This document shows, in pieces, positions 1-62,975 of a stretch of DNA of 64,000 nucleotides. The stretch comes from Squalus acanthias (lineage: Eukaryota). The position numbers were made by a program, and so were the translations under genes. Every line of letters starts with the position of its first letter. Position 1 is the first letter of the stretch. Location: assembly GCA_030390025.1 (NCBI GenBank), contig CM059431.1, forward strand, positions 111,602,001-111,666,000, read 5' to 3'. Under the pieces are notes generated by a model, which was not told the DNA's origin, ran no database searches, and worked only from the letters and a program-made list of their open reading frames with translations.

Positions 1-276
1 CCCAGAATTCACAATATAAACACAGAAAAAATGTATTCAAATCTTTTCAGGTAGGGTAGCTGTGAGAGAATCTCAGGTAGGGTAGCTGTGAGAGAATCAT
101 TTTTTCTGTGTTTATATTGTGAATTCTGGGAGATTCTCTCACAGCTACCCTACCTGAAGAAGGAGCGACAGCTCCGAAAGCTTGTAATTTTAAATAAATC
201 TGTTGGACTATAACCTGGTGTTGTGCGACTTCTCATTTTTGTCCACCCCAGTCCAACGCCGGCATCTCCACATCAT
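1..276 (+). mobile_element. Penelope-like element end (pLTR plus 3' tail) with inverted arm running off the window edge
   Basis: 99-239 matches the pLTR at ~9903-10043 and 99-276 is the reverse complement of 7413-7590; 1-44 is the same pLTR inverted; contains a hammerhead core at 151-186. Confidence 0.85.
151..186 (+). ncRNA. Minimal type-I hammerhead ribozyme motif (PLE-associated)
   Basis: UAC-CUGAAGA-A-GGAGC(GACA)GCUCC-GAAAGCUU-GUA: CUGANGA/GAAA core, 5-bp stem II, palindromic AAGCUU in place of stem III, UAC/GUA stem I. Confidence 0.8.
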
Positions 277-1156
277 CATTAGATTGAGCATTGCATTGGC
301 GGATTAATAAATCCCGTCACAATGTTACTGTGAGGTGGAATATTGGTTACATCTTCTTCCCCAATAATTAACAGCCTTCTATTGAAATTTCATTAAAATC
401 ACACATTTTAATACTGCATCACATTAGCATGTCATTAATACTGGGAACATGCATTCTCCCCTTTTTGTTAAATGAGTAATTTCACCCCATAGATTCTTAG
501 TGTTCCACATCAAAATAGAACTGGTCTCTAGTCCAAGTGCTTTTCCACAGTGATCGTAACCAGCCTCTTAAAGAAGCACTGTGCCATCACTGAGTAGATT
601 GTACTAAATACGTGCTACTGGCCTGTTTTGTTGCAGTGCAAAATAATGGCTGAATAAAATAGCTAATAGCTGATCTTATTTTTCACTGAGAAGCCTACTG
701 CCCCTTTTTTCAAGCCGTTACCCAGTCTATCCATTCCGACACCTAAAATGAAATAATTAGTCTCAAAATAAATTTCTCATCAAATTAACAAATGAATGCA
801 TCCCACCCACAGCATGGCTCCATCAGCTGAAGTCATCGGGCTCTTGACTCGCAAACTTAAGGTCTCATGTTGAAGTCAAATTTTGTTTTTATTGCATGGG
901 ATTTTTACCACTGTTTTAAGGATCAGATTCCTCAAGTGCACCTGTTTATAATTAAGTCCGCTGGTTTATGCTGACTGAATTAGTGAGATTCCATTGTTAC
1001 GTGTGATTTTCACCAGTGTTTTTTGGAGATTTAATTATATAATTTTGCCCATTTTTCCATGAAAACCGCAAGTCAATGGCTTTGGTCATACGTTCCAGAG
1101 CTTCCTGTTTTCCAAGTTAATTTGCTTCCATTGAGAGTAATATCCACCTCAGCAAG

Positions 1157-1250
1157 GAGAAAGATTTCCTCTGTGCGCTGAAATTGTAAACCCATTTGTA
1201 AACAGGTTTTCGATTATTTGACACACACAATCCACAGAGGAAATCTTCCC
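1157..1250. mobile_element. Tiny MITE-like inverted repeat
   Basis: aagatttcctctgtg ... cacagaggaaatctt termini, flanked by aag on both sides. Confidence 0.4.
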
Positions 1251-1737
1251 AAGCGGTCACGGTCATGTGAACGACGTCCCTCTTGCTCTTTCAAGATCAT
1301 CGTGGGGAACTATGCAGCTTCCTTGTGACAGGAAGAGGCTGCATGGTTTGCAAGATACTTCCCCAAAGTCATCCGAGAACGGATCTCGCTAACTTTGTGC
1401 ACCTTATGCTTCTAGGGTTAGACACTGCAGCTTTCCCAAGTAGCTGCTTTTGCAAAGTCAGTTATGCCCTAAACAGCCAGAAGAGAGACAAAAATGGCCT
1501 GAGTGCATTCAGTACAACAGTCTGAAACCTCCTAATATCCAACATATCCATGCCAAGTATATTCTACCTGAAAGAGACCAGTCATATTAGTCCTGGTAAT
1601 GGTTGCCTAAATGGCTTGTGATGAGAACCACTTTTAAGCACAGCAATACACAATTTTCACATTTATAGTCCAAGTTCTGATAAAGTTTTACTCTGAAAGG
1701 TTAGATGTGCAATTGCCACCAGACAGAAGGGACTTAC

Positions 1738-1842
1738 CAGCGATTCATTGGCACACTGAAACACGTAGCACACATACTGATTTAGTCCCGGTTCAACACT
1801 TTCTCGACAAATGAACCCAAAATGGTCAACGTGTTTTATACC
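1738..1842 (-). CDS. TBC1D4: TBC1D4 (AS160) coding exon, second PTB domain (equivalent to human exon 4)
   Basis: 105 nt, ttccAG|GGT...CTG|GTaagt; translates [35 protein letters not shown], near-identical to the TBC1D4 segment I recall. Confidence 0.95.
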
Positions 1843-2647
1843 CTGGAAGGATACAGTTAAAAGATGCCAGGTTAGATGTAAGGGAATCAGTAAAAAGAGT
1901 AGAAGCAACTTCTGAAAGTCTTCCTATCAGCAACCACCAGGGTTAAACTGACAAAATACCATCTTTTCTTGTTAGGACTGCCTCTGGCTGAGCTCTGTCA
2001 TTATGCCACCTAACAAGGATTGGCATCACTTACAGACGGCTGACTGCTCCCCCCCCCCCTCCCCGCCCACACTCCATTGGTTGTCCAACACCACCATCTT
2101 CAGTGCGCATTTCCTTCCCACGCCAATTGGAAAGTAAACAGACTCCTCATTACCCGATGGGATGATTCTTGACTGCCAATCAAACAACCGTTTCTTCCCC
2201 ATCTCCAATATTTTTATAACTAGTAAATGAAATTTTATTGATATTGTACTTGAGCAAGAATGCCAATCCTACCCCCAAGCGCAAACTCTCATCTTAATGA
2301 CTGGTTAAAAAAATCAGAAAGTTAATTTAATCTAGGTTAGAAATATTTTCTGAATGCCACTGTAAGGATTAACCCAGTTTAGGCTGTGCAGTCATGAACT
2401 CATGCTTGCCGACAAATTATTTGTAACATTTCCAGCTGTCAAGTTTTTTATTCCCGGTTTTATGGGGATTTTATGATATTGACTGTAATTGGTCTCCTGA
2501 GGGAAGCCATTACCAAACAGCGAGCCAGAATGAAGCAAGCTAGAGTTAAACATAGTTTCTGAGCAGAATTTACAGTTGGTCCAGGCAAAGTCATAGGAGC
2601 TGGATTGCGGAGATTCAACGGAATTTACACCATCACATCAGGCGTTT

Positions 2648-3597: not shown

Positions 3598-4083
3598 GGT
3601 GTTTGTAAGGTTTGTCAAATGATCTTTCGTGGGAAAAAAGAGGCTCTACCATTTGCCACGCTGGCCTCATGATCCAGGTAGCCATTTTTCCTGAGATTAA
3701 CTGTCCGCTCCTCAGCTCCCAGCACTTAACAACCTCTCAGAAATGAGCGGCAGACTGTACTGGGAACCAGGACTGAGCAACAGACCATCATGCAGCTGTG
3801 TCCATGCCACAAACAAGACTGCAGCCTTGACAAGGAGATCAGTCAAACTGAGGCGATTTTATTTTTTAAATTTTTTTAATAAAATGTAAAATAACTCATC
3901 ACAAAGTGTACCTGTCAGTGAAAAACTCAAAGAAAGATCGCCTGGGGAGATAATCCTGAAACACACCTCGAACCACTCTTGTTGTGAAAATGATAACAAT
4001 TGTGGGCAGCGCCTAATTATACCAATTACAATAACTAAATAAAAAGTGAAGATAAACACTGGAAAAGCCAGATAACTACAAAC

Positions 4084-4173
4084 CTGAGAACACGAGGAAA
4101 TATTTTTGAAATTCTTTTCAAGTACAACTGTTTTGGTATCGGGACTGATGAGGTTAACTTCAAACCGACCGAC
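4084..4173 (-). CDS. TBC1D4: TBC1D4 coding exon (equivalent to human exon 3)
   Basis: 90 nt, ttttcatAG|GTC...CAG|GTttgt; my translation is [30 protein letters not shown] (not in the ORF track). Confidence 0.95.
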
Positions 4174-5231
4174 CTATGAAAAGAAAACACAGATATGACT
4201 CCCTTTGAAAATAAAACAAACAGCCAGTGTTTCAGTCAGTACAACCACAGAACCACAGGACGAATGTTGTTAAGATCCGCATTGTGTTGAAAGCGTATGA
4301 CACTGCCTTGAGATATGTACATTTACAGCTCTGCCCCGTGACAACCACGTGCTTGATGAAAGAACGAAGATTTCTTTGTGACACAAACATACACAGGGGC
4401 AGCTGTCGCCAGCTTTCAGTCCTCCTTCGTTTAAAGAGACAGCAACCAAACACACATAATTATCACTGTTTAAAAGCAAAAACAAAATTAAAAGCGGATT
4501 ATTTTTGTTTTGCCGTTTCTCTCCCTCCAATTTCTCTCCGATCTCCGCTCATGACCTCTCCGCGTTCATCTTGTCCATGAGATTCACTTCCTGCTCCCAT
4601 GACCCTATTCCCACCAAACTGCTGACTACCCAACTTCCTTTTCTGGCTCCCATGTTAGCTGATATTGTTAACGATTCTCTCTCCTCAGGTACTGTCCCCC
4701 TCTCCTTCAAATCTGCCGTCATCACCCCTCTCCTCAAAAAAACAACCCTTGACCCCTCCGTCCTTGCAAACTGCCGCCCCATCTCCAACCTCCCTTTCCT
4801 CTCCAAAGTCCTTGAACGTGCTGTCGTCGCCCAAATCCGTGCCCAGCTTTCCTGCAAATCCATGTTTGAAACCCTCCAATCAGGTTTCCGCCCTTGACAC
4901 AGTACCGAAACAGCTTTCATCAAAGTCACAAATGACATCCTTTGTGACTGTGACAAAGGTAAACTATCCCTCCTCATCCTTCTTGACTTGTCTGCAGCCT
5001 TTGACACAGTTGATGACTCCATCTTTCTCCAACACCGTCGTCCAGCTGGGTGGGACTGCACTCGCCTGGTTCCATTCTTATCTATCTAATCATAGCCAGA
5101 GAATCACCTGCAATGGCTTCTCTTCCCACTCCCGCATCGTTACCTCTGGTGTTTCCCAAGGATCTATCCTTGGCCCCTTCCTATTTCTCATCTACATGTT
5201 GCCCCTTGGCGACATCATCCGAAAACACAGA

Positions 5232-6291
5232 GGGCTGGATTTTCATTGACCCGTGGAGGTGGGTTTGGAGGCATGTGGGGGGTTAAAATTGTGAAAACTG
5301 GTGGGCGGGCACAAGCCCGCCTCCACGCAATTTTCATTAAATCGTGTCTGCTGGTCCCGACTCCGTGAGGCGGGATAGGCTGTTAAGGACATTAACAAGC
5401 ACTAAATTGCCTCTATAATGCCATTTTGAAAGGCCTTTGTGATTTTAACCCTTTTTCTACGTGAAGCACGCCTGTTCTGAACCACGAATGTGAAACCTGG
5501 CGGGAGCACATCTGGCTGGCTGGCTGGCTGATCGATCTGGGAGTGGTGGTGGATGGGAGACATATCTGGGAGCAGATTTAGGGCTGCTGCTGCTCATTTT
5601 CCATCCAGGTCCTCTCACAGCAAAGGCCAGGCAGTCTTTGCAGACCTTCAATGCAGCAGCAATGATGACATCATCAGAGGCGACTTTCAGACTGAAAACA
5701 CTAATTGGTTCATGGGTTCCCACATGCTGGAACTCAATTGCCCAATTAGGTGAAAATCACATCATAGAAACTAGGAGCAGGAGTAGGCCATTCGGTCCCG
5801 TCGAGCCTGCTCCACCATTCAATACGATCATGGCTGATCATCCAAATCCAGTACCCTGTCCCTGCTATCTCACACAGAATCCCCATCGAGCCTGCACCGA
5901 CACATATCCCACCCTATCCCCGTAACCCCACGTATTTAATTCCCCCTAACATATCCCATCCTATCCCCGTAACCCCGCATATTTAATCCCCCCCTAACAC
6001 TAAGGGTCAATTTATCATAGCCAAATCAACCTAACCCGCACATTTTTGGACTGTGGGAGGAAACCGGAGCACCCGGAGGAAACCCACGCAGACACAGGGA
6101 GAATGTGCAAACTCCACACAGACAGTCACCTGAGGCCAGATTCGAACTCGGGTCCCTAGCGCTGTGAGGCACCAGTGCTAACCACTATGCCACCGTGTTG
6201 CATCAATCTCCCACATCCAATTGCAGTCGGGTGCATAACACGAAAAGTGGATGACACAACCCCAACCCGCCCCAGTATCAAAATCCAGCCC
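5232..6291 (+). mobile_element. PIF/Harbinger-type non-autonomous transposon (family A, copy 1)
   Basis: TIR gggctggatttt/aaaatccagccc, 3-bp TSD AGA; internal similarity to the 10629-12061 element. Confidence 0.8.
5765..6197 (-). mobile_element. HE1-type V-SINE (tRNA head, V domain, CR1/HER1-like tail)
   Basis: Minus strand: tRNA-like head, gtgtggagtttgcacattctccc...gtgggtttcctccgggtgctccggtttcctcccacagtccaaa V domain, and tail gaatggcctactcctgctccta shared with CR1 3' ends in the window. Confidence 0.85.
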
Positions 6292-7502
6292 AGAGTTTCC
6301 ACATGTACGCTGATGACACCCAGCTCTACCTCACTACCACTTCTCTCAAGCCCTCCACGGTCTCTAAATTGTCAGACTGCTTGTCCGACATCCAGTTCTG
6401 GATGAACAGAAATTTTCTCCAATTAAATATTGGGAAGACATAAGCCATTGTTTTCGGTCCCCGCCACAAACTCCATTCCCTAGCCACTGACTCCATCCCT
6501 CTCCCTAACATCTGTCTGAGGCTGAACCACACTGTTCGCAACCTTGGTGTCATATTTGACCCTGAAATGAGCTTCCGACCACATATCCGCAGCATAACTA
6601 AGACCGCCTATTTCCACCTCCGTAACATCCCCCGTCTCCGCCCTTGCCTCAGCTGATCCGCTGCTGAAACACTCATCCATACCTTTGTTACCTCTAGACT
6701 TGACTATTCCAATGCACTCCTGGCTGGCCTCCCACATTCTACCCTACGTAAACTTGAGGTCATCCAAAACTCGGCTGCCCGTGTCCTAACTCGCACCAAG
6801 TCTCGTTCACCCATCACCCCTGTGCTCGCTGACCTACACTGGCTCCCAGTTAAGCAACGCCTCGATTTCAAAAGTCTCATCCTAGTTTTCAAATCCCTCC
6901 ATGGCCTCGCCCCTCCCTATCTCTGTAATCTCCTTCAGCCCCACAACCGCCCAAGATATCTGTGCTCCTCTAATTCTGCCCTCTTGAGCATCCCTGATTA
7001 TAATCGCTCAACCATTGGTGGCCGTGCCTTCTGTTGCCTAGGCCCTAAGCTCTGGAATTCCCTGCCGAAACCTCTCCGCCTCGCTACCTCTCTTTCCTCC
7101 TTTAAGACGTTCTTTGACCAAGCTTTTGGTCACGTGCCCTAATTTCTCCTTATGTGGCTCGGTGTCAAATTTTCTTTGTCTTATAAAACTCCTGTGAAGC
7201 GTCTTGGATGTTTTACTACGTTAAAGGCGATATATAAATCTAAGTTGTTGTTGTTATCGTTCCCCTTCTATTTTTCCCCAATCTCCTTGTGGCACGCATG
7301 ATCTATGGCTCAGAGGGCAGGGATGCAAGTAACCTACTCCAAAACCTCCGTCCACTCAGAGGTATATGAGAATCCCAAATGGAAACAACTGCTTATATTA
7401 ACAATAGAGGTCATGATGTGGAGATGCCGGCGTTGGACTGGGGTGGACAAAAATGAGAAGTCGCACAACACCAGGTTATAGTCCAACAGATTTATTTAAA
7501 AT

Positions 7503-7538
7503 TACAAGCTTTCGGAGCTGTCGCTCCTTCTTCAGGTA
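7503..7538 (-). ncRNA. Minimal hammerhead ribozyme motif (sense to TBC1D4 pre-mRNA)
   Basis: Reverse complement of the 151-186 motif. Confidence 0.8.
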
Positions 7539-7767
7539 GGGTAGCTGTGAGAGAATCTCCCAGAATTCACAATATAAACACAGAAAAAATGTATTCAAAT
7601 CTTGCCCTACATCAAAGACACACTAAGAGCACAGCCAAGACAATGAGATGTGTCCCAGGGGGTCCAACGTGTCAAAACACCTGCTGGCTGCATATCCTCT
7701 CCATTTGGGTTTGGTTCTTGTGTTAGTTTTTTTAAAAAAACCTGGAAAGACCGGCCATGATGTCAAG

Positions 7768-8916
7768 TCACGTTCTGTATCGTGACATGAACCCGATATC
7801 GCGATTGAGGCCATCCTCATGAGTGCGGAACTTGGCTATCAGTTTCTGCTCTATGATTTTGCGCTGTCGTGTATCCTGAAGGCCGCCTTGGAGAACGCTT
7901 ACCCGCAGATCCGAGGCTGAATGCCCCTGACTGCTGAAGTGTTCCCCGACTGGGAGGCAACCCTCCTGCCTGGCGATTGTTGCGCGGTGTCCGTTCATAC
8001 GTTGTCTCAGTGTCTGCATGGTCTCGCCGATGTACCATGCTCTGGGGCATCCTTTACTGCAACGTATCAGGTAGACAACGTTGGCCGAGTCACATGAGTA
8101 TGTACCATGTACCTGGTGGGTAGTGTCCTCACGTGTGATGATGGTATCTGTGTCCATGATCTGGCATGTCTTGCAGAGGTTGCCGTGGCAGGGTTGTGTG
8201 GTGTCGTGGTTGCTGTTCTCCTGAAAGATGGGTAATCTGCTGCGAACGATGGTACTTTTGAGGTTAGGCGGCTGCTTGAAGGCGAGTAGTGGAGGAGTGG
8301 GGATGGCCTTAGCAAGGTGTTCGTCGTCATCGATGACATGTTGAAGGCTGCGAAGAACATGGCATAGTTTTTCCGCTCCGGGGAAGTACTGGACGACGTA
8401 GGGTACTCTGTTGGTTGTGTCCCGTGTTCGTCTTCTGAGGAGGTCTATGCGGTTTTTCGCTGTGGCCCGTCGGAACTGTCGATCGACGAGTCGAGCGTCA
8501 TATCCCGTTCTTACGAGGGCGTCTTTCAGTGTCCGTAGGTGTCCATCGCGTTCCTCCTCGTCTGAGCAGATCCTGTGTATTCGCAGGGCTTGTCCATAGG
8601 GGATGGCTTCTTTAACGTGGTTAGGGTGGAAGCTGGAGAAGTGGAGCATCGTGAGGTTGTCCGTGGGCTTGCGATAGAGTGAAGTGCTGAGGCGTCCGTC
8701 TTTGATGGAGATTCGTGTGTCCAAGAATGAAACTGATTCTGAGGAGTAGTCCATGGTGAGTTTGATGGTGGGATGGAACCTGTTGATGCTATCGTGTAGT
8801 CCTTTCAGTGATCCTTCGCCGTGGGTCCAAAGGAAGAAGATGTCGTCGATGTATCTGGTGTACAGCGTTGGTTGGAGGTCCTGTGCAGCGAAGAAGTCTT
8901 GCTCGAACTTGTGCAT
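7768..8916 (-). CDS. Penelope-like RT C-terminal half plus GIY-YIG endonuclease (5'-truncated, frame open)
   Basis: YTRYIDDIF RT motif, FLD, YRKPT; linker C-x4-C-x2-C (PCHGNLCKTC); VVYLIRC...C...WYIGET...R...H...H...E...GLN GIY-YIG pattern. Confidence 0.92.
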   Translation of the reverse strand: MHKFEQDFFAAQDLQPTLYTRYIDDIFFLWTHGEGSLKGLHDSINRFHPTIKLTMDYSSESVSFLDTRISIKDGRLSTSLYRKPTDNLTMLHFSSFHPNHVKEAIPYGQALRIHRICSDEEERDGHLRTLKDALVRTGYDARLVDRQFRRATAKNRIDLLRRRTRDTTNRVPYVVQYFPGAEKLCHVLRSLQHVIDDDEHLAKAIPTPPLLAFKQPPNLKSTIVRSRLPIFQENSNHDTTQPCHGNLCKTCQIMDTDTIITREDTTHQVHGTYSCDSANVVYLIRCSKGCPRAWYIGETMQTLRQRMNGHRATIARQEGCLPVGEHFSSQGHSASDLRVSVLQGGLQDTRQRKIIEQKLIAKFRTHEDGLNRDIGFMSRYRT

Positions 8917-8927
8917 GAAGATGTTGA

Positions 8928-9726
8928 CTCAGACGAGGAGGAACGCGATGGACACCTACAGACACTGAAAGACGCCCTCGTAAGAACGGGATATGACGCT
9001 CGACTCGTCGATCGACAGTTCCGACGGGCCACAGCGAAAAACCGCATAGACCTCCTCAGAAGACGAACACGGGACACAACCAACAGAGTACCCTACGTCG
9101 TCCAGTACTTCCCCGGAGCGGAAAAACTACGCCATGTTCTTCGCAGCCTTCAACATGTCATCGATGACGACGAACACCTTGCTAAGGCCATCCCCACGCC
9201 TCCACTACTCGCCTTCAAGCAGCCGCCTAACCTCAAAAGTACCATCGTTCGCAGCAGATTACCCATCTTTCAGGAGAACAGCAACCACGACACCACACAA
9301 CCCTGCCACGGCAACCTCTGCAAGACATGCCAGATCATGGACACAGATACCATCATCACACGTGAGGACACTACCCACCAGGTACATGGTACATACTCAT
9401 GTAACTCGGCCAACGTTGTCTACCTGATACGTTGCAGTAAAGGATGCCCCAGAGCATGGTACATCGGCGAGACCATGCAGACACTGAGACAACGTATGAA
9501 CGGACACCGCGCAACAATCGCCAGGCAGGAGGGTTGCCTCCCAGTCGGGGAACACTTCAGCAGTCAGGGGCATTCAGCCTCGGATCTGTGGGTAAGCGTT
9601 CTCCAAGGCGGCCTTCGGGATACACGACAGCGCAAAATCATAGAGCAGAAACTGATAGCCAAGTTCCGCACTCATGAGGATGGCCTCAATCGCGATATCG
9701 GGTTCATGTCACAATACAGAACGTGA
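8928..9726 (+). pseudogene. Second, inverted and shorter copy of the Penelope thumb/linker/GIY-YIG region
   Basis: Same protein from SDEEERDGH onward with about 6 substitutions; the upstream part of ORF 8821 is antisense read-through. Confidence 0.9.
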
Positions 9727-9954
9727 CTTGACATCATGGCCAGTCTTTCCAGGTTTTTTTTTAAAACTAACACAAGAACCAAACCCAAATGGAGAGGATA
9801 TGCAGCCAGCAGGTGTTTTGACACGTTGGACCCCCTGGGACACATCTCATTGTCTTGGCTGTGCTCTTAGTGCGTCTTTGATGTAGGGAAAGATTTGAAT
9901 ACATTTTTTCTGTGTTTATATTGTGAATTCTGGGAGATTCTCTCACAGCTACCC

Positions 9955-9990
9955 TACCTGAAGAAGGAGCGACAGCTCCGAAAGCTTGTA
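9955..9990 (+). ncRNA. Minimal hammerhead ribozyme motif
   Basis: Identical to 151-186. Confidence 0.8.
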
Positions 9991-10628
9991 ATTTTAAATA
10001 AATCTGTTGGACTATAACCTGGTGTTGTGCGACTTCTCATTTTCATATTAACAATCACAGCGCATGGTCAGGACAACTTAAAGAGCCCCCTGTGTTCGAT
10101 GTGGTGGAGGGGTAGAGTTGGCATAGTCATGTGTCACTTGCACTGTAGTGATGCAGTGACGTAAGCAATTAATATTTTTGCTTTGTGGTTGGAATAATTA
10201 CACCGTCGTGTCCAACAAAGAAAAAAAACGTTTTTCTGAATTGATTGTGTAATGACAGTGCCGTTGTTAAGCAATGAAATCATGACTTTAAGCTGTCTGA
10301 ACTCGACTAGATTCTAAACAGTGAATGGACCTGTTTAGATGCACGATGAATGGAGTAATTTTTATTAATGTGTTTGTACAGCAATGAATCTGCTGGTTAG
10401 ATATGCGGTATGCATAAATGAACTGCAATGCTATAAACCTGAAATAAATTGCACATATTATACAGATTATCATCTGCATAATAAAAATGAATGTGGGAGA
10501 ATCCTGACTCTTGTAAAGGACACACTTAAAACTGCCGTGCCCCAGTCGTGTGTGGCTATCAGGCACTTTCCTACAGGGAAGTAAGGAAGGTTCCACTGGC
10601 ATGAGGGTCGGTAACCAGAGGACACAGA

Positions 10629-16050: not shown

Positions 16051-16846
16051 TCTGTATACGTACGTCACAAACATAAAACAGCAACGCTGTATAAGTCGCC
16101 TCGTGGTTACTCAGCACTTGGAGCACTGAAAGGGAACGTGTCAAATTAGTGTTCAAAAAAATGTTAAACGCGAGTTAAACGGGAGGCCAGCTTTCCTGCA
16201 GGCCCTGCCGACTTTAATTTGCATACGAGGCCTCGGTTTCCCGCCCGCAGCCAGCCAGATTGCTGGAACTGCCGGGTTTTACAAAGTATGTAAAGCCCGA
16301 CCACAGGCAGTTAAAAACAAAATGAAGGTTAAAGAGGAGGCTTCCAGCCTCATTATAATATTTAAATTGACATCCCACCTCCTGGGAGCGGGCTAGCTGC
16401 CCGCCACCCCCCCCGTCCCGCCTGTTAAAATCGGAAGTGGGCGGATTGGAGGCGGGTTCAGGTCGAGAATCCGATTTTTTAACGATTTAACTACCACCAC
16501 GCCCCCAACCCACCCGTTTCTTAGATTAAAATTCCCCCCGATGAATCCTCCAAAACTCACAGAAAAGGCCACTGAAAGTAAATCAGCAGTTTAAAATCAC
16601 ATGGTCAGTTACAGTATTTCCCCTCAGCAATCTGTGCATGGGTAGGCATGTCAATATGCCAGTACATAATGATGCCCATCTCCGCTGCACCTATGCATCA
16701 ATCTCAGAACCCCCAATCTCTGCACTGGTGGAGATGCTTCAGTACCTCTCCATCCTGCATTACTAGAGGTCACAAGCTTTGCTGATTTCAGTATGTATAC
16801 CCATCTACCTTCTATTTCTTCACAAAAAGTGATAAAACACGCATAC

Positions 16847-17440
16847 CTGAAATAACATTGTCCGATTTTTCTCTGCGTCGGAGGGTTGGACGTGACTTGG
16901 AGCGCTGGCGTGACGGCGTCGGGCTTGCACTTTGGCGCCGAGGTCGGGCATCCTCATGGGCCGAATGCTGGCGACGCTGTTACACCGAGAGCGGAACTCG
17001 GCCTGCTCCTCCTCGAAGGGCGTGTCCCCCAGACTGGGCTCGGTCAGAGCCGAGCCCAAGCCCGGGCCCGACAGGTCGCTCTGACTGCCGCTGGCTGAGG
17101 GCAGGCTGGTGTTGACTGTTGCCTCGTCTGCCACCTCGTGGAGCCGCTTCGAATCCCCCCCGGCATCTCCCTCCTCCTGGCCAGCGGCGGCGTCGGCCAG
17201 GGGCTTCTCGTTCAGCAGCTTCAGCCGCTGCCTTTCCAGCTGGTGCTGGGCAAACTTCTCGATGCAGTCGTCAATAATGGTGGACGGAGCCTTCTTGTGC
17301 GTCACCACCACTTTGCCGCAGTACAGCACTTCGTACTTCTGCGAGTTGTAAAAGGCATCCTCGCTGACTTGCCGGGATTTGGTGTCCCCCTTTAAGGCGG
17401 CCTTGGATACTTGCCGGATGCCGCTGATAACATCAGGAAC
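16847..17440 (-). CDS. TBC1D4: TBC1D4 coding exon (equivalent to human exon 2)
   Basis: 594 nt, ttttAG|GTT...CAG|GTatgc; VPDVISGIRQVSKAALKGDTK...FYNSQKYEVLYCGKV...EFRSRCNSV...RRRHASAPSHVQPSDAEKNRTMLFQ, which matches TBC1D4 rather than TBC1D1. Confidence 0.96.
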
Positions 17441-24275: not shown

Positions 24276-24532
24276 CCCCCATCTCAGAACTGCTGCTTTT
24301 CAGATGCTGGCAGCTCACAGTGAGTACAGGTGAGCAGCCTAAACACCACACCGAGATTATACAATCAAGTTGCTCTGTACAACTTGAGGACTGAGTTACT
24401 TAATGACTGAACACTGGATCAGCCTCCAGCAAAGTAAAGGATGTTGATTCCCGTTCTTTCAGCGCGTGCATTTGCTGAATGATCAGGGCCTCATTCAATT
24501 GAAACCTTGTACGTTACTTTAGTTTCTTTATT

Positions 24533-26093: not shown

Positions 26094-26169
26094 ATAGACT
26101 GCTGAATCTGATCTCCCTCTTTATGTGCACCAGTGTGTGTTAAAAGAAACTTTCCTTCGCCATCAAATC

Positions 26170-29324: not shown

Positions 29325-30255
29325 CAAAAGCAAAATACTGCAGGATGCTGGAAATCTGAAATATAAACAGAAACTGCTGGAAACACTCAGCGGGTCAGGC
29401 AGCATCTGTGGAGAGAGAAACAAAGTTAACGTTTCAGGTCAATGACCTTTCGTCAGAACTGGAAAAAGTTAGAGATGTAACAGGTTTTAAGCAAGTGCGG
29501 GGGCAGGGAAAGGAGGGCGGGGAGGAAAGAACAAAAGGGAAGGTCTGTGAAAGGGTGGAAGGCAGGAGAGATTAAATGACAAAAGGGATGAAGGGACACG
29601 GCAAAATGGGATGGCATTGGGACAAGTAAAGAAACAAAAGATGGGTCCAGAGGAGATGTAAATGGTTACAGCAGAACCGTCACCAGCATCTACTGTCGAA
29701 AAAATGAGGGCAGTGGTTATGATCTGAAATTGTTGAACTCGATGTTGAGTCCAGCAGGTTGCCTAATCAAAAGATGAGGTGCTGTTCCTCAAGCTTCCAT
29801 TGAGCTTCATTGGAACAGTGTAGGTGGCTGTGGAAAGGGGCAGAGAATTAAAATGACAAGCAACCGGCTTGCAGACTGAACGTTGGTGTTCTGCAAAGCG
29901 GTCACCCAATCTGCATTTGCTCTGCCCAGTGTAGAGGAGACCGCGCCGTGAGCAGCGAACACAGTGTACTAAATTGAAAGAAGTACAAGTAAATCGCTGT
30001 TTCACCTGGAAGGAGTGCTTGGGGCCCTGGACGAGGTGAAAGGGCAGGTGTTGCATTTCCTGCGCTTGTACGGGAAGGTGTCATGGGTAGCAGAGCGAAT
30101 ATTGGGGGTATTGAAGAGTGGACCAGGGTGTCGTGGACGGAATGGTCCCTTTGGAATTGCTTTGCACCATTACCCATCTGAGATTTAATTACTCCTGCCT
30201 CCTACCCTATCACAGACCTTTCCTTTTGTTCTTCCACCCCCCGCTCCCTGCCCAC
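29325..30255 (-). mobile_element. Second Penelope-like family: decayed GIY-YIG end plus pLTR, with a short inverted arm at ~30180-30252
   Basis: FTCTSFNLVHCVRCSRRGLLYTGQSKCRLGDRFAEH (degenerate GIY-YIG); hammerhead at 29424-29460; 30180-30252 is an inverted copy of ~29500-29578. Confidence 0.8.
29424..29460 (-). ncRNA. Minimal hammerhead ribozyme motif, family 2
   Basis: AGUU-CUGACGA-A-AGGUC(AUU)GACCU-GAAACGUU-AACU. Confidence 0.8.
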
Positions 30256-50144: not shown

Positions 50145-50341
50145 GAAGCAAAATACTGCGGATGCTGGAAATCTGAAATAAAAACAGGAAATGCTGGAAA
50201 ACACTCAGCAGGTCAGGCAGCATCTGGGGAGAGAGAAACAGAGTCAACGTTTCAGTTCGGATGAAAGGTCATTGACCTCACACATTTCTCTCTCCACAGA
50301 TGCAGGCTGACCTGCTGAGTGCTTACCAGCATTTTCTGTTC
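50145..50341. mobile_element. Miniature fold-back Penelope insertion (family 2)
   Basis: Left arm matches 29327-29436; the right arm is its inverse; 13-bp TSD tgtaaatgttact/tgtaagtgttact; damaged hammerhead (cggatgaaaggtcattgacct) at the turn. Confidence 0.8.
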
Positions 50342-55375: not shown

Positions 55376-55660
55376 AAATGAGAAGTTGCACAACACCAGG
55401 TTATAGTCCAACAGTTTTATTTGAAATCACGAGCTTTCGGAGCGCTGCTCCTTCGTCAGGCAAAGTGAAGGAATACAAATCAGCAAAGCATATATAGACA
55501 GAGAACAATGTGTAGCGTACAGTGTCAGACGACTACAGTAAATCTCACTGACTGCCCTCTATCACACCTCGGCAGAGATACAATCAAGGAAGGCATTACA
55601 TCAAAGACACAGCAAAATACAGCTAAGACAATGAGGTGGGGTCACAGGGGGTTCAGGTCT
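55376..55660 (-). mobile_element. Penelope pLTR fragment (family 1 variant) with hammerhead motif at ~55425-55462
   Basis: gagaagttgcacaacaccaggttatagtccaacag...gctttcggagcgctgctccttcgtcagg; downstream similarity to 7600-7670. Confidence 0.75.
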
Positions 55661-56449: not shown

Positions 56450-56820
56450 CTCAAATTTTTAATCCTCATTCTTGTGTTCAAATCGCTCCATGGCCTCGCC
56501 CCTCCCTAACTCTATAACCTCCTTCAGCCCCACAACCCCCAGAGAACTATGCGTTGCTCTAATTCAGACCTCTTGTGCATCTCCGATTTCCATCGCCCCT
56601 CTATTGGCAGCCGTGCCTTCAGCTGCCTAGGCCCTAAGCTCTGGAATTCCGAACCCCTCTGCCTCTCTCTCCTCCTTATAACCTACCTTTTTGACCAAGC
56701 TTTTGGTCACCTGTCCTAATATCTCTTTATGTGGCTCGGTGTCAAATTTTGTCTGATAATGCTCCTGTTAATGTTTTACTACATTAATGGTGCTATATAA
56801 ATGGAAGTTGTTGCTGTTGC
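56450..56820 (+). mobile_element. L2 3' fragment
   Basis: LILVFKSLHGLAPP and L2 3' UTR. Confidence 0.8.
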
Positions 56821-57154: not shown

Positions 57155-57580
57155 TCTGCTCGCTGACCTACACTGCCTCCCAGTTAAGCAACGCCTCGAT
57201 TTTAAAATTCTCATCCTTGTTTTCAAATCCCTCCATGGCCTCTGTAATCTCCTCCAACCCTACAACCCCGCCGAGATATCTGCGCTCCTCTAATTCTGCC
57301 CTCTTGAGCATCCCTGATTATAATCGCTCAACCATTGGTGGCCGTGCCTTCTGTTGCCTAGGCCCTAAGCTCTGGAATTCCCTGCCTAATCCTCTCTTTC
57401 CTCCTTTAAGACACTCCTTAAAACCTACCTCTTTGACCAAGTTTTTGTCCATCTGCCCTAATTTCTCCTTATGTGGCTTGGTGTCAAATTTTTTATCTTA
57501 TAACGCTCCTGTGAAGCGCCTTGAGATTTTTACTACATTAAAGGCGCTATCTAAATACAAGTTGTTTTTGTTGTTGCTGT
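57155..57580 (+). mobile_element. L2 3' fragment
   Basis: Near-identical to 6825-7255. Confidence 0.85.
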
Positions 57581-58414
57581 TTATATGTAGTAAATTAAAT
57601 ATTAATGCTGGAAGTGGAGTGTACCCAATGAATGCAATGTGCAAATCCAGTAACTTAAGTAAATGTGCACATGTCTCAATTAGTAATCTTTGGTAAATAA
57701 TAAACATATTCACTCGGGGGCACAGCACTAATGTGTAGATCTGTTTACTGCCTTGAGGCAATTTTAGAAACATAGGCAAAAGTTAGCAATTACTCTTATT
57801 ATTAACACACAACATAACTGCACCTCAACGCACAATTAGCACGTGTGCGCCAGCTCTACCGCGTAAAGTAAATTAAGCCCTGAAATTGGTGGCTCCATTA
57901 TCCGGTGAGGATACTTTGCTACTAATTACATTCGTACATATTTTAAGCAGCAATTCACCTGCAGCTCCAATATAAACAACATCGGCCCTCAGTGTAAATG
58001 GGATTCATTAGGGAAGTTCTGTACTGCCTCATAATTGATTATCCCAAGCTGATCAAAGATAGTACATACAACTGTGTCTTATATTAAAAGAGAAAAAATA
58101 GACAGACTCGCATTTCCATAGCGCCTTTCACAACCTCCCAACGTCCCAAAGCGCTTTAGTCAATGAAGTACTTTTTTGAAATGTAGTCACTGTTGTAATG
58201 TAGGAAAATTTGTATCTAAGCTCTGGTCTGTACTATTCTATACTATTTAATCCAATTATTAATACAGTGACTAATTATTAATAAGGTAATTACTCGAATC
58301 CATGACTCAGCATTATTATTTCTATGAATGAGTTTGTTAATTGTAGGGTGAAATTACACTGTACAATTAAGTTAACCTGTTCATATGAAACTTCTTCGTC
58401 CAATATTTTGACAA

Positions 58415-58885
58415 TAAAGAAAGAAAGACTTGCATTTATATAGCGCCGTTCACGACCACCGGACGTCCCAAAGCGCTTTACAGCCAATGAAGTACTTTTA
58501 AAGTGGAGTCACTATTGTAATGTGGGAAATATGGCAGCCAATTTGCGCACAGCAAGGTCCCATAAACAGTAATGTGATAATGACCAGATAATCTGTTTTT
58601 GTTATGTTGGTTGAGGGATAAATATTGGCCAAGACACCGGGGATAACTCCCCTGCTCTTCTTCGAAATAGCACCATGGGATCTTTTACATCCACTTGAGA
58701 GAGCAGACGGGGCCTCAGTTTAATGTCTCATCTGAAAGATGGCACCTCCAATAGCGCAGCACTCCCTCAGCACTGCACTGGAGCATCAGCCTAGTTTTAT
58801 GTGCTCAAGTCCCTGGAGTGGGACTTGAACCCACAACCTTCTGACTCAGAGGCAAGTGTGCTACCCACTGAGCCACAGCTGACAC
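58415..58885 (-). mobile_element. SacSINE1/DeuSINE-type SINE (full length)
   Basis: Complete head to (aaag)n tail on the minus strand. Confidence 0.85.
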
Positions 58886-59539: not shown

Positions 59540-60328
59540 TTAACAACAACAAATTGCATTTACATAGCGCCTTTAACGTAGTAAACGTCCCAAGGAGCTT
59601 CACGGGAGCGTTATAAAACAAAATTTGACACTGAGCCACATAAGGAGATAGATGGGCAGGCGGCCAAAAGCTTGGTCAAAGAGAAAGGGCTTAAGGAGCA
59701 TCTTAAAGGATGGCACAGAGAGGCGGAGAGGTTTAGGGAGAGAATTCCAGAGCTTAGGGCCCAGGCAGCTTAAGGCACGGTCGCCAATGGTGGAGTGATT
59801 AAAATCGGGGATGCGCAAGAGGCCAAAATTGGAGGAGCGCAGAGATCTCGGAGGGTTGTAGGGCTGCAGGAGGATACAGAGATAGGGAGGGCCAAAGCCA
59901 TGGAGTGATTTGAAAACAAGGATGAGAATTTGAAAATTGAGGTGTTGCCAGACCAGGAACCAATGCAGGTCAGAGAGCACAGGGGTGATGGGTGAACGGG
60001 ACTTTGTACGAGTTAGGACACAGGCAGCAGAGTATTGAATGAGCTCAAGTTTACGGAGGGTGAAAGGTGAGAAGCTAACCATTGCAGCATTGGAATAGTC
60101 AAGTCTAGAAGTAACAAAGGCATGGATGAGGATTTCAGCAGCAGATGAGCTGAGGCAGGGACAGAGATGGGCGATGATACAGAGGTGGAAGCAGGAGGTT
60201 TTGGTGAGGGAGCAGATAAGGGATCTTAAGCGCATCTCAGAGTCAAATAGAACGCCAAGTTTGCAAATGGTCTGGTTCAGCCTCAGACAGTGACCAGGGA
60301 GAGGGATGGAGTTGGTGGTTAGGGAACA
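59540..60328 (-). mobile_element. L2 3' fragment; appears to resume at ~62240-62585 after a CR1 insertion
   Basis: IHAFVTSRLDYSN...; the 62312-62623 ORF has [13 protein letters not shown]...MYPDDTQLY. Confidence 0.85.
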
Positions 60329-60329
60329 T

Positions 60330-62236
60330 AAAACTGCATAGAATTACATAGAATATACAGTACAAAACAGGCCATTTGGCCCAACCAGTCAATGCCGGCG
60401 TTTATGCTCCACTTGAGCCTCCTCCCATCCTTCCTCATCTAACTCTATCAGCATAACCCTCGATTCCCTTCTCCCTCATATGCTTATCTAGCCTCCCCTT
60501 AAATGCATCTATACTATTTATCTCAACTATTCCCTGTGAGTTCCACATTCTCACCACTCTCTGGGTAAAGAAGTTTCTTCTGAATTCCATAATTGATTTC
60601 TTGGTGATTATCTTATATTGATGGCCTCTGGTTTTGCTCTTCCCCACAACTGGAAACTCTGGGCTGGATTTTGATACTGGGGCGGGTTGGGGTCGTGTCA
60701 TCCACTTTTTGTGTTATCCACCCGACTCCAATTGGATGTGGGAGATTGATGCAATTTTCACCTAATTGGGCAATTGAGTTCCAGCATGTGGGAACCCATG
60801 ACCCAATTAGTGTTTTCAGTCTGAAAGTTGCCTCTGATGATGTCATCATTGCTGCTGCATTGAAGGTCTGCAAAGACTGCCTGGCCTTTGCTGTGAGAGG
60901 ACTTGGAGGCACAATGAGCAGCAGCAGCCCTAAGTCTGCTCCCAGATATTTTTGTACCACCACCACCACTCCCAGATACTATTCCTATTATTCCTCCTCC
61001 TCCTACTACTACCACCACCATCTCCGTTCTAATAGTGGACCTGCAGCTGATAGTCAGCAATCCAAATGTGCTCCCGCCAGGTTTCACATTCGTGGTTCAC
61101 AACAGGCGTGCTTCACGTAGAAAAAGGGTTAAAATCACAAAGGCCTTTCAAAATGGCATTATAGAGGCAATTTAGTGCTTGTTAAGGGCCTTAACAGCCT
61201 ATCCCACCTCTTGGAGGCGGGATGGAGTCGGGACCAGCAGACACGATTTAATGAAAATTGCGTGGAGGCGGGATGGAGGCGGGCTTGTGCCCGCCCGCCA
61301 GTTTTCGCAATTGTAACCCCCCCCCACACGTCTCCAAACCCACCTCCACGCAATTTTCATTAAATCGTGTCTGCTGGTCCCGACTCCATCCCGCCTCCAA
61401 GAGTGAAAATTCTGCCCATTCTCTCGCTATCTACTCTATCAAAACCTTTCATAATTTTAATCACCTCTATTAGGTCACCCCTCAGCCTTCTCTTTTCAAG
61501 AGAAACAGACCCAGGCTGTTCATCCTTTCCTGATAGGTATAACCTCCCAGTTCTGGTCTCATCCTTGTAAATCTTTTTTGCACCCTGTCCAGTGCCTCTA
61601 TATGCTTATTATAATATGGTGACCAGAACTGTACACAGTACTCTAAGTGTGGTATAACCAAGGGTCGATTCAAGTCTAGCATAACTTCTCTACTTTTCAA
61701 TACTATCCCTCTAGAAATAAACCCTAGTGCTTGGTTTGCTTTTTTTAATGGCCTTATTAACCTGTGTCACTACTTTTAGTGATTTGTGCATTTGTACTCC
61801 TAAATCCCTTTGCCCTCTACCCCATTTAGATTCTTATTTTCCAAGTAATATGTGACCTCCTTATTTTTCTTACCAAAATGTAATACCTCACACTTATCTA
61901 TGCTGAAATTCATTTGTCAATTATATGCCCATTCTGCAAGTTTATTAATGTCTTCTTGTAATTTGTTGCAGTCCTCCTCAGTATTGACTATCCCCCGCAA
62001 TTTGGTGTCGTCCACAAATTTAAAAATTGTGTTTTTGATTCCAAATTCTAAATTGTTAATATAAATTGTGAACAACAGTGGTCACAGCACTGATACTTGT
62101 AGGACCCCACTTCCCACCTTCTGCTACTCTGAATAGCTACCCTAACCCCTACTCTCTGCTTTCTATCTTGCAGCCAGCTAGCTATCCATTCTGCTACTTG
62201 TCCCCTGACTCCACATGGTCCAACCTTATTCATTAG
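60330..62236 (-). mobile_element. CR1 3' portion nested in L2 and interrupted by MITE family A
   Basis: RGQVAEWIASWLQDRKQRV, PHLEYCVQFWSP, RRNFFTQRVVRMWN. Confidence 0.85.
60661..61417 (-). mobile_element. Harbinger-type MITE family A (copy 2, rearranged end)
   Basis: Reverse complement of 5232-6291 without the SINE; ends gggctggatttt and aaaattctgccc. Confidence 0.8.
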
Positions 62237-62785
62237 TCTGTTTGTGGGAGAGAATGGAGTTTGTGGCAGAGACTGAAGACAATGGCTTTGGTCTTCCCAA
62301 TATTTTTTTTTTTAAATCGGGAAGAAATTTCTGTTCGTCCAGCACTGGATGTCAGACAAGCAGTGTGGAAAATCAGAGGAAGTGGAGGGGTCAAGAGAAG
62401 TGATGGTGAGGTAGAGCTGGGTGTCGTCAGGGTACATGTGGAACCTGACGTTGTGTTTTCGGATGATGTCGCTGAGGGGCAGCATGTAGATGAGAAATAG
62501 AAGGGGACCCAAGGATAGATGCTTGGGGAACTGCAGAGGTAAAGGTGTGGGAGCAGGAAGAGAAGCCATTGCAGGAGATTCTCTTTTGATGTTTAAAAAA
62601 TTAGAGAGTGCTTCGGAAGACACTTAAAGTATGAAGTTGACATGTTTCAATCTAATTCAACACGTCGAAAGTTCAGTAAAATTAAAAGAACTAAGCTTGT
62701 ATAGCTCGTATATGATAGAAGCAATAAAAAAAAGGTTCAGTACTTAGTGGGTTAATGTGGCAAGATAGGCAGCTAGCATTAAAAC

Positions 62786-62975
62786 ATGATGCGGAGATGC
62801 CGGTGTTGGACTGGGGTGGACAAAAGTGAGAAGTCGCACAACACCAGGTTATAGTCCAACAGCTTTATTTGAAATCACAAGCTTTCGGAGCGCTGCTCCT
62901 TCGTCAGGTGAAGTGACCTGACGAAGGAGCAGCGCTCCGAAAGCTTGTGATTTCAAATAAAGCTGTTGGACTATA
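62786..62975. mobile_element. Miniature palindromic Penelope insertion (family 1) with two opposed hammerhead motifs
   Basis: Perfect 60-bp arms 62850-62909 and 62916-62975, 6-nt loop; tail on the left; TSD (ta)gcattaaaac at 62774-62785 and 62974-62985. Confidence 0.9.

What the first reader, a model, noticed from the sequence alone, without database searches (positions are those of the whole stretch)
151..62954. Dispersed minimal hammerhead ribozymes with covarying stems from two Penelope families inside TBC1D4 introns
Seen: CUGANGA-A-stemII-GAAA cores at 151-186(+), 7503-7538(-), 9955-9990(+), 29424-29460(-), ~55425-55462(-), 62875-62911(-), 62910-62954(+) and a damaged one near 50258. Sequence changes while pairing is kept: stem I UAC/GUA, UCAC/GUGA, AGUU/AACU; stem II GGAGC/GCUCC vs AGGUC/GACCU; stem III palindrome AAGCUU vs AACGUU. 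Established: Penelope-like elements carry minimal type-I hammerheads with palindromic stem III that cleave as dimers. Inference: four copies are sense in the TBC1D4 pre-mRNA. Same-palindrome copies could dimerise, with predicted cleavage after GCUU/CGUU, and the two palindromes may act as family-specific pairing codes.
Basis: partly seen in the sequence, partly recalled or inferred. Interest (0 to 1): 0.85.

Follow-up and report, generated by a model that had tools for sequence, protein, structure and literature searches.

The report
Penelope retroelement hammerheads in shark TBC1D4
The small self-cutting RNA motifs are real, but they are the standard tail-end signature of two families of Penelope-like jumping genes that landed in the introns of a shark TBC1D4 gene, an already described kind of sequence with no sign of a role for the host gene.

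Summary
Observation confirmed. Seven exact CUGANGA...GAAA cores lie at the stated places. Six pass a strict minimal type-I hammerhead descriptor, against 0 hits in 200 shuffles. The seventh (62918+) keeps only 2 bp of stem I. The copy near 50258 has lost its core.

They are three sequence lineages (A, C about 92% like A, and B) from about six insertions. A and B are distinct Penelope-like elements (PLEs). An RT plus GIY-YIG ORF lies upstream in the same sense, copies share a 3' end and are 5'-truncated, many lie head to head, and there is a 35-38 nt optional tail.

The motifs carry three of four published hallmarks of metazoan PLE min-HHRs throughout. These are an unpaired base after A9, a palindromic loop III and between-family compensatory changes. 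The fourth, G10.1-C11.1, holds in A/C but not in B.

The window covers TBC1D4 exons 2-4 on the minus strand, so four copies are sense, as claimed.

Cleavage, dimerisation in the pre-mRNA and "pairing codes" remain untested. Older copies decay freely: 19 of 37 B copies are intact. No Rfam hammerhead model scores them.

This is a known kind. The scan has met it before on other genomes.

The parts
151..186 (+). Family A min-HHR, antisense to TBC1D4, in intron 4. Predicted cut between 183 and 184. It lies in a 5'-truncated PLE copy at 94-276 that carries the tail. Its inverted partner lies mostly upstream of the window start.
7411..8926 (-). Family A PLE copy, 1516 nt, 5'-truncated, with the 38-nt tail. 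It holds the 3' end of the RT/GIY-YIG ORF (7768-8928, 386 aa) and the 3' non-coding region.
7503..7538 (-). Family A min-HHR, sense in TBC1D4 intron 2. Predicted cut between 7506 and 7505.
8928..10043 (+). Family A PLE copy lacking the tail, joined head to head to the previous copy. The two form a 1.1 kb inverted repeat at 98.8% identity.
9955..9990 (+). Family A min-HHR, antisense to TBC1D4, in intron 2.
29325..30161 (-). Family B PLE copy, about 840 nt, 5'-truncated. Its ORF is decayed and gives no tblastn hit at E<1e-3.
29424..29460 (-). Family B min-HHR, sense in intron 1. It has A10.1-U11.1 and an ACGU palindrome. Predicted cut between 29428 and 29427.
50228..50286 (.). Decayed family B head-to-head pair. 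The plus-strand copy at 50253-50286 has a broken core. The minus-strand half at 50228-50255 lacks the CUGANGA box.
55427..55463 (-). Family C min-HHR, sense in intron 1. Stem I has wobble pairs and N17 = C. It lies in a 97-nt copy at 55372-55468 that ends at the tail-less position.
62875..62911 (-). Family C min-HHR, sense in intron 1, in a copy at 62785-62911 that carries the tail. Predicted cut between 62879 and 62878.
62916..62975 (+). Family C copy head to head with the previous one. The core is present at 62918-62942 but stem I is reduced to 2 bp. Together with 62785-62911 it folds into a hairpin of more than 60 bp.
16835..17440 (-). TBC1D4 exon 2 (aa 138-337 of the sawshark homologue P0004, 90% identity).
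4069..4179 (-). TBC1D4 exon 3 (aa 332-368).
1648..1857 (-). TBC1D4 exon 4 (aa 359-426).

Best explanation
The motifs are the minimal type-I hammerheads that sit in the 3' non-coding (pseudo-LTR) region of endonuclease-bearing Penelope-like retroelements.

Two element families inserted into introns 1, 2 and 4 of a shark TBC1D4 gene. The first is A, with its roughly 92%-identical subfamily C. The second is B. The copies were made from the 3' end of the element RNA. Each insertion therefore keeps the last 100-1500 nt, including the hammerhead. Each is 5'-truncated and is often joined head to head to a second, inverted copy that lacks the last 35-38 nt (the PLE 'tail'). These points are shown here.

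What follows is taken from published work and was not tested here. In the element's own tandem or read-through transcript, two motifs are thought to pair through the palindromic loop (AGCU in A/C, ACGU in B). This builds helix III and cuts after N17, weakly and possibly with help from the element's protein.

In the TBC1D4 pre-mRNA the four sense copies are most likely bystanders that do not cut to any useful extent. This last point is inference.
For: Element identity
- Family A has at least 1330 first-look candidates in the 3.71 Gb genome. The 40 scored matches are 99-100% identical. Family B has at least 2400 candidates at 92-96%.
- A 692-aa ORF lies upstream of the A hammerhead in the same sense in L031. 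It scores RVT_1 at E=1.4e-8, 35.2 bits against a cut-off of 29.6.
- That ORF is 38% identical over 678 aa (E=3e-153) to P0188. The C-terminal region of P0188, aligned to ORF residues 590-683, scores Pfam GIY-YIG at 28.8 bits against a cut-off of 22.6.
- The window copy holds the last 386 aa of this ORF at 98% identity.
- B loci encode a protein 28-40% identical to A residues 246-681, upstream of the B hammerhead.

PLE anatomy
- A copies share a 3' end at window 7401-7413 and have variable 5' truncation.
- 18 of 30 A loci hold a head-to-head inverted pair. In 18 of 18 of these the partner ends 35-45 nt short, at 7445-7457.
- B copies end at 29325, or at about 29360 in 5 HSPs.
- These are the features listed for PLEs in PMC8557442 and PMC11167929 (passages read).

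Motif hallmarks from PMC4209133 (main text read)
- An unpaired A between A9 and 10.1 in 16 of 16 distinct variants.
- G10.1-C11.1 in A and C.
- A palindromic loop III.
- Double-sided changes between families at 3 of 5 stem II pairs and at stem I pairs 1-4.

Other points
- The A and B 3' regions share no detectable sequence similarity: best local score 21, against a shuffle mean of 19.3 and maximum of 26. The shared motif is therefore structural.
- The motifs are far more frequent than chance.
Against: - No Rfam hammerhead model reports any copy. This holds at gathering score, at E<=10 on the whole window, and on short stretches around 62.9 kb and 29.4 kb.
- Family B lacks the conserved G10.1-C11.1. 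It has A-U, or G.U in a common variant.
- Stem I is only 3-4 bp.
- Pfam does not score GIY-YIG directly on the window's own ORF. That domain rests on alignment to a homologue.
- No full-length copy with two direct pseudo-LTRs was examined.
- Self-cleavage was not tested. [quoted passage not shown]
Confidence: 0.88

Rival explanations
1. The sense copies are active in the host transcript. Same-palindrome copies in the TBC1D4 pre-mRNA dimerise and cut the introns, so the palindromes act as family-specific pairing codes that affect TBC1D4 expression.
For: Four intact-looking copies are sense. Three of them (7.5, 55.4 and 62.9 kb) share the AGCU palindrome. An isolated pair of A motifs is predicted to form an intermolecular AAGCUU duplex, at -25.1 against -21.4 kcal/mol for two monomers.
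Against: - Sense copies are at least 7.4 kb apart, and helix III would be only 4-6 bp.
- The 62.9 kb copy is sequestered in a hairpin of more than 60 bp (-131.5 kcal/mol). The 7.5 kb copy is one arm of a 1.1 kb inverted repeat.
- In context folds the hammerhead is not the minimum-energy structure for the 29.4 and 55.4 kb copies.
- Published dimers cut poorly even in vitro (PMC4209133).
- Only 19 of 37 B copies elsewhere still pass the descriptor, which looks like neutral decay.
- From recall, not from any call: ribozyme cuts inside introns need not block co-transcriptional splicing.
Confidence: 0.03
2. The short C copies (97-125 nt, starting a few bases upstream of the hammerhead) come from a non-autonomous, retrozyme- or SINE-like derivative of the PLE pseudo-LTR, not from truncated autonomous elements.
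For: All three C copies in the window are short and begin 0-9 nt upstream of CUGA. A 2026 preprint argues that vertebrate non-LTR retrozymes derive from PLE pseudo-LTRs and found them in its one chondrichthyan (abstract and passages read).
Against: There are no direct tandem repeats of the unit in the window. In one other locus (L037) a C-type hammerhead lies about 320 nt downstream of an ORF end that is 90% identical to the A ORF. Extreme 5' truncation is normal for PLEs.
Confidence: 0.08
3. The motif is conserved in PLEs for something other than self-cleavage, for example as a folded handle for the element's protein near the reverse-transcription start sites. On this view it merely looks like a hammerhead or parasitises the element.
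For: - Published in vitro activity is low, and the Anolis motif cut only when the element's protein was present.
- Cleavage is dispensable for insertion in vitro.
- No RNA-seq ends were found at the site (PMC11167929).
- The authors of PMC8557442 call the function unclear.
- Here the motif lies only 57 nt upstream of the tail-less 3' end and 95 nt upstream of the tailed end.
Against: The full catalytic core, including C3, G8, G12 and A13-A14, is kept in two families whose flanks are unalignable. That degree of conservation is what catalysis requires. Core mutants abolish the Anolis activity.
Confidence: 0.2
4. The motifs are chance matches to a short degenerate pattern.
For: The bare pattern is only twice as frequent as in shuffles, and 5 of its 12 hits are noise.
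Against: The strict descriptor gives 6 hits against 0 in 200 shuffles. The motif sits at a fixed place in two high-copy repeat families. 45 of 46 A copies in other loci pass the descriptor.
Confidence: 0.01

Closest known systems
Minimal hammerheads (min-HHR) of metazoan Penelope-like elements (Cervera & De la Pena 2014, PMC4209133; dimer cleavage in Lunse et al. 2016/17, seen only as reference 134 of PMC6765202 and not read)
   Same: - Type-I topology and the CUGANGA/GAAA core.
- An unpaired base between A9 and 10.1.
- Stem II of 5 bp and a short open stem I.
- Helix III reduced to A15.1-U16.1 around a 2-nt palindromic loop.
- Consensus families that covary within one genome.
- Mostly solo copies from truncated elements, with pairs on opposite strands 100-700 bp apart also described.
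   Different: - The host is a shark. The 2014 main text names bony fishes, coelacanth, Xenopus and reptiles, and I did not open its supplements.
- Family B has A-U or G.U at 10.1-11.1 instead of G-C.
- Family A is unusually uniform (45 of 46 copies intact). This resembles the D. virilis case, which the paper links to ongoing invasion.
EN+ Penelope-like elements with a CX2-5CXXC linker (Neptune/Nematis clades, as described in PMC8557442)
   Same: - A single ORF with RT then a C-terminal GIY-YIG domain.
- A CX4CXXC motif before the endonuclease, seen in the translation and conserved in the homologue.
- 5' truncation, an inverted 5'-truncated partner, and a 30-40 bp tail at one end only.
- The hammerhead near the 3' end.
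   Different: No tree was built, so clade assignment rests on the linker motif alone. No full-length copy with direct pseudo-LTRs was examined.
Poseidon PAc of Anolis carolinensis (PMC11167929)
   Same: The optional tail matches the two adjacent reverse-transcription start sites reported there. Cleavage and extension of both DNA strands in vitro would explain head-to-head insertions with 3' ends facing outwards, as seen here.
   Different: In PAc the ORF starts inside the hammerhead. Here the motif lies about 233 nt after the stop codon, and no start codon overlaps it.
Vertebrate non-LTR retrozymes (PMC7229834, search listing only; bioRxiv 10.64898/2026.07.22.740005, abstract and passages read)
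   Same: Type-I hammerheads with a palindromic loop III, related to PLE pseudo-LTRs, and reported in a chondrichthyan.
   Different: Retrozymes are head-to-tail tandem units that yield circular RNA. No direct tandem occurs in this window.

Membership tests
Metazoan PLE min-HHR | Catalytic core C3-U4-G5-A6-N7-G8-A9 ... G12-A13-A14 with type-I topology | tested here: met
   7 of 8 sites have the exact core. The copy at 50253-50286 has lost U4, G12 and A14.
Metazoan PLE min-HHR | [quoted passage not shown] | tested here: met
   An A is present in all 16 distinct variants parsed. The feature is listed in PMC4209133.
Metazoan PLE min-HHR | G10.1-C11.1 base pair (families A and C) | tested here: met
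   7 of 7 A/C variants have G-C.
Metazoan PLE min-HHR | G10.1-C11.1 base pair (family B) | tested here: not met
   6 B variants have A-U and 3 have G.U; none has G-C. A pair is kept, but not the conserved one.
Metazoan PLE min-HHR | Palindromic 15.2-16.2 / loop III allowing an intermolecular helix III | tested here: met
   A-GC-U in 7 variants and A-CG-U in 9.
Metazoan PLE min-HHR | Families with compensatory changes in stems I and II | tested here: met
   Double-sided changes occur at 10.1, 10.3, 10.4 and at stem I pairs 1-4 between A/C and B. Between the closely related A and C, pair 2.3-1.3 changes from U-A to C-G. Only three lineages were compared.
Metazoan PLE min-HHR | Located in the repeat or 3' region of an element encoding RT and GIY-YIG | tested here: met
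   Family A. Family B. Family C: one locus, L037.
Metazoan PLE min-HHR | Self-cleavage as a dimer | not testable with these tools
   Only a cofold prediction was possible. No RNA reads could be laid.
Rfam hammerhead families | Score at or above the gathering threshold of a curated hammerhead covariance model | tested here: not met
   There were no hammerhead hits at gathering score. There were none at E<=10 on the whole window, on 62800-63000 or on 29380-29500.
EN+ Penelope-like element | Reverse transcriptase domain | tested here: met
   RVT_1 scores 35.2 bits against a cut-off of 29.6 on the 692-aa ORF of L031. A YIDD motif is in the window ORF.
EN+ Penelope-like element | C-terminal GIY-YIG endonuclease | tested here: met
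   Pfam does not score it on the ORF itself. Residues 590-683 align to the stretch of P0188 that Pfam scores as GIY-YIG above its cut-off. Many of the 120 listed homologues carry PF01541.
EN+ Penelope-like element | 5' truncation, an inverted 5'-truncated partner, and a 30-40 bp tail at one end only | tested here: met
   18 of 30 A loci hold inverted pairs, and the partner lacks the tail in 18 of 18. The query included the tail, so the queried copy is biased towards being tailed. In B the alternative ends lie 35 nt apart.
EN+ Penelope-like element | Direct pseudo-LTRs from partial tandem insertion | not tested
   No full-length tandem copy was looked for. All copies examined are 5'-truncated.
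Non-LTR retrozyme | Head-to-tail tandem units each carrying a hammerhead | tested here: not met
   The window has no direct tandem of the units. Same-strand motifs are at least 7.4 kb apart.

The most novel reading that the evidence does not exclude
A very young and probably still mobile Neptune-like PLE family is seeding intact, dimer-capable hammerheads in the sense strand of introns of conserved shark genes. It has at least 1330 candidate copies, the scored ones 99-100% identical. Where two same-palindrome copies share one intron, as at 55.4 and 62.9 kb of TBC1D4 intron 1, they pair in cis and cut the pre-mRNA. The palindrome (AGCU or ACGU) would then decide which elements can cut each other's transcripts.
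Probability: 0.03. Interest if true: 0.6.

Novelty: new member of a known kind. Interest (0 to 1): 0.15.

Why it matters
It matters little beyond annotation. It adds two shark PLE families, one strikingly young, to the known catalogue of hammerhead-bearing Penelope-like elements. It also shows that Rfam's hammerhead models miss this class entirely, so genome annotations will not flag them.

The regular asymmetry of the insertions fits the two reverse-transcription start sites and the two-strand priming reported for the Anolis element. Each unit has one tailed end and one tail-less end, with 3' ends facing outwards. It could serve as natural data for that mechanism.

If the intronic copies did cut, this would be a case of retroelement ribozymes acting on a host pre-mRNA. 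Nothing here points that way.

Tried and rejected
- Rfam at gathering score and at E<=10, on the whole window and on two short stretches, gave no hammerhead family. It gave only miRNA-like hits caused by the inverted repeats.
- Pfam on 15 long window ORFs found nothing in the two family A ORFs. The RT showed up only on a longer copy from another locus.
- A PDB sequence search with the 692-aa ORF found nothing useful.
- A genome search with the Pfam PID family did not find the TBC1D4 N-terminal exons. A full-length shark homologue did.
- RNA evidence: no RNA holder was listed by the look-up of sequencing runs, and only contigs of runs of guessed type were offered. Expression and RNA ends remain wholly untested.
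- The MAFFT alignment of the 16 variants put family B one column out of register after loop II. It was therefore not used with the count of structure pairs. Pairs were counted by parsing each sequence against the motif.
- Looking for further hammerhead families in the 210,795 bases of fetched loci found only A, B and C types.
- Lunse et al. (PMC5785218) is not held.
- No custom covariance model was built. It would match its own seeds by construction.
- The search of earlier findings by place and by sequence returned nothing for this genome.

Full report
**The observation**

A plain pattern search for CTGANGA, 5-30 bases, then GAAA gives 12 hits, against 5.5 expected. The other five have no hammerhead stems.

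I wrote a descriptor for a minimal type-I hammerhead. It asks for:
- stem I of at least 3 bp;
- the core, with 0-1 unpaired base after A9;
- stem II of at least 4 bp, then GAAA;
- a palindromic loop III closed by A15.1-U16.1;
- a non-G at position 17.

It finds six sites: 151-186(+), 7503-7538(-), 9955-9990(+), 29424-29460(-), 55427-55463(-) and 62875-62911(-). It finds none in 200 dinucleotide-preserving shuffles.

A relaxed version adds 62916-62948(+), whose stem I is only 2 bp. That gives 7 sites, against a mean of 0.27 and a maximum of 2 in 100 shuffles.

The damaged copy is at 50253-50286(+). It has substitutions at U4, G12 and A14. It abuts a minus-strand half copy at 50228-50255 that lacks the first core box.

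- The 55.4 kb copy has a wobble-rich stem I and reads AAGCUC.
- The 62918(+) copy is incomplete.

No Rfam hammerhead model reports any of them. This holds at gathering score and at E<=10, on the whole window and on two short stretches. The only hits there are miRNA-like matches to the inverted repeats.

**What the copies belong to**

The seven motifs are three sequence lineages.

| Lineage | Window sites | Notes |
|---|---|---|
| A | 154, 7510, 9958 | identical over at least 116 nt |
| C | 55435, 62883, 62918 | about 92% like A over about 125 nt |
| B | 29432, plus the decayed pair at 50.2 kb | unrelated in sequence to A |

The best local alignment of the A and B 3' regions scores 21. Shuffles give a mean of 19.3 and a maximum of 26.

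The window lies in a 3.71 Gb assembly. Family A has at least 1330 first-look candidates there, and the 40 scored are 99-100% identical. Family B has at least 2400, and the 40 scored are 92-96% identical.

Comparing 30 A loci with the window copy shows a common 3' end (window 7401-7413) and 5' truncation anywhere from about 150 to more than 1500 nt. In 18 of 30 loci there is a second copy in inverted orientation. It is joined 5' end to 5' end, so the 3' ends face outwards.

In 18 of 18 such pairs the partner stops at 7445-7457, which is 35-45 nt short of the other end. My query contained the last 37 nt, so the queried copy was bound to be the tailed one. The partner was free to be either.

Family B shows the same pattern. 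Most copies end at 29325, and five HSPs end at about 29360.

In the window:
- 7411-8926(-) is a tailed A copy joined at 8927 to a tail-less A copy at 8928-10043(+).
- 94-276(+) is a tailed copy whose partner lies upstream of the window.
- 62785-62911(-) and 62916-62975(+) are a C pair.
- 55372-55468(-) is a solo tail-less C copy.
- The 50.2 kb B remnant is again a head-to-head pair.

**The proteins**

Upstream of the A hammerhead, in the same sense, the window copy carries an open frame of 386 codons (7768-8928, minus strand). It has a YIDD motif, a CX4CXXC motif and a GIY-YIG-like end. Pfam scores nothing on it.

A longer copy elsewhere (L031) has a 692-codon frame that scores RVT_1 above the curated cut-off. 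It is 38% identical over 678 residues to a database protein, P0188. The C-terminal stretch of P0188, aligned to residues 590-683 of the ORF, is scored by Pfam as GIY-YIG above its cut-off.

Many of the 120 listed homologues carry PF01541. They come from sharks, turtles, ticks and amphioxus.

B loci encode a protein 28-40% identical to A residues 246-681, upstream of the B hammerhead. The window's own B copy is too decayed to show it.

One C-type hammerhead in another locus lies downstream of an ORF end that is 90% identical to A.

Together these features define endonuclease-bearing Penelope-like elements in the passages I read of PMC8557442 and PMC11167929:
- an RT followed by a GIY-YIG domain;
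- 5' truncation;
- inverted partners;
- a 30-40 bp tail at one end;
- a hammerhead near the 3' end.

'Two Penelope families' is correct.

**The motif against the published description**

Cervera and De la Pena (PMC4209133, main text parts 1-2 read) list four features that emerged beyond their descriptor for metazoan PLE min-HHRs. I parsed 16 distinct variants from the window and the loci.

| Published feature | Result here |
|---|---|
| Families full of compensatory changes | Met: see below |
| Conserved G10.1-C11.1 | Met in A and C. Not met in B, which has A-U or G.U |
| Palindromic 15.2-16.2 or loop III | Met: GC in A/C, CG in B, both palindromic within A-NN-U |

For compensatory changes, three of five stem II pairs and stem I pairs 1-4 differ on both sides between A/C and B while staying paired. 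Between the close relatives A and C, pair 2.3-1.3 changes from U-A to C-G.

The covariation claim therefore holds, but it rests on only three lineages.

Within families the dead copies decay. 45 of 46 A copies in the other loci still pass the strict descriptor, but only 19 of 37 B copies do. Typical CpG losses hit G8 and the palindrome.

**The host gene**

The Pfam DUF3350 family hits two places in the genome. One is 51 kb below the window on the minus strand, with RabGAP-TBC exons further down. The DUF3350 exon's best database relatives are all named TBC1D4, and sharks are the closest.

A full-length sawshark TBC1D4 maps exon by exon to C7:111512849-111786937 on the minus strand. Exon 1 lies above the window. 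Exons 2, 3 and 4 are at window 16835-17440, 4069-4179 and 1648-1857.

Everything from 17441 to 64000 is therefore intron 1. The minus-strand motifs at 7.5, 29.4, 55.4 and 62.9 kb are sense in the pre-mRNA.

**How it works**

Shown here: these are retrotransposed 3' ends of PLEs.

Taken from the literature, not tested here: the motif is thought to process the element's tandem transcripts as a dimer through the palindromic loop. Activity in vitro is low. In the Anolis element, cutting needed the element's protein, was dispensable for insertion, and left no RNA-seq ends.

That study also found two adjacent reverse-transcription start sites and cleavage and extension of both DNA strands. This would account for the 'one tailed, one tail-less, 3' ends outwards' units counted here. 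This link is my inference.

For the TBC1D4 transcript I find no support for activity:
- Sense copies are at least 7.4 kb apart.
- The 62.9 kb pair folds into a hairpin of more than 60 bp at -131.5 kcal/mol.
- The 7.5 kb copy is one arm of a 1.1 kb inverted repeat.
- In context folds the hammerhead is not the preferred structure at 29.4 or 55.4 kb.

AGCU and ACGU cannot pair with each other, so family-specific dimerisation follows trivially from the model. It is not evidence of a selected code.

**RNA evidence**

None could be obtained. No run on record as RNA was listed, and only contigs were on offer.

**Novelty**

The kind has been published since 2014 and was reviewed in 2019. A 2026 preprint includes one chondrichthyan for the related retrozymes.

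A full-text search for 'Penelope-like', 'shark' and 'hammerhead ribozyme' together found one paper, a review that I saw only in the listing. I did not open the supplements of PMC4209133, which may list further species.

The scan itself met the same kind of motif on other genomes and judged it known.

I file this as new members of a known kind, of low interest. The only mildly notable points are the youth and uniformity of family A, the non-canonical 10.1-11.1 pair of family B, the clean tail asymmetry, and the blindness of Rfam to this class.

Noticed in passing
window 46398-48984 (+), 35744-37162 (-), 51551-52309 (+), 4659-5249 (+): There are non-LTR (LINE-type) retrotransposon remnants in TBC1D4 introns 1 and 2. 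One has an AP-endonuclease domain followed by RVT_1 in overlapping frames. Three further frames have RVT_1, the last one weak.
   Followed up: no
window 61201-61411 (-): A long near-perfect hairpin scores 82 bits on the plant MIR1858 model, far below its gathering score of 137. It is most likely another inverted-repeat transposon fragment, not a microRNA gene.
   Followed up: no
window 63761-64000, 58091-58694, 41170-41438, 34902-35176, 24030-24750, 22911-23192, 17815-18085, 56228-56337: A dispersed short repeat of about 110-260 nt, 78-91% identical between copies, on both strands. It is SINE-like by size. It was not classified.
   Followed up: no
window 6476-7256, 27982-28664, 59541-60326, 57157-57572, 56461-56818, 33066-33364, 26163-26710: A second dispersed repeat of up to about 790 nt, 77-90% identical between copies. 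It was not classified.
   Followed up: no
family A loci L001-L030, junctions equivalent to window 7584-7612: The 5' truncation and inversion junctions of short A copies cluster 50-75 nt upstream of the hammerhead, in at least seven of 30 loci. This suggests a preferred stop or template-switch point.
   Followed up: partly
proteins P0144, P0153, P0139, P0161: Several public gene models in sharks and turtles fuse this PLE reverse transcriptase to host domains (ENTH/ANTH, PYD, zinc-RING, methyltransferase). One is named as an epn2 isoform. These are probably annotation chimeras caused by intronic PLE copies.
   Followed up: no
window 4145-4181 (+): One of the chance CTGANGA...GAAA pattern hits overlaps TBC1D4 exon 3 on the antisense strand. 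It has no hammerhead stems.
   Followed up: yes
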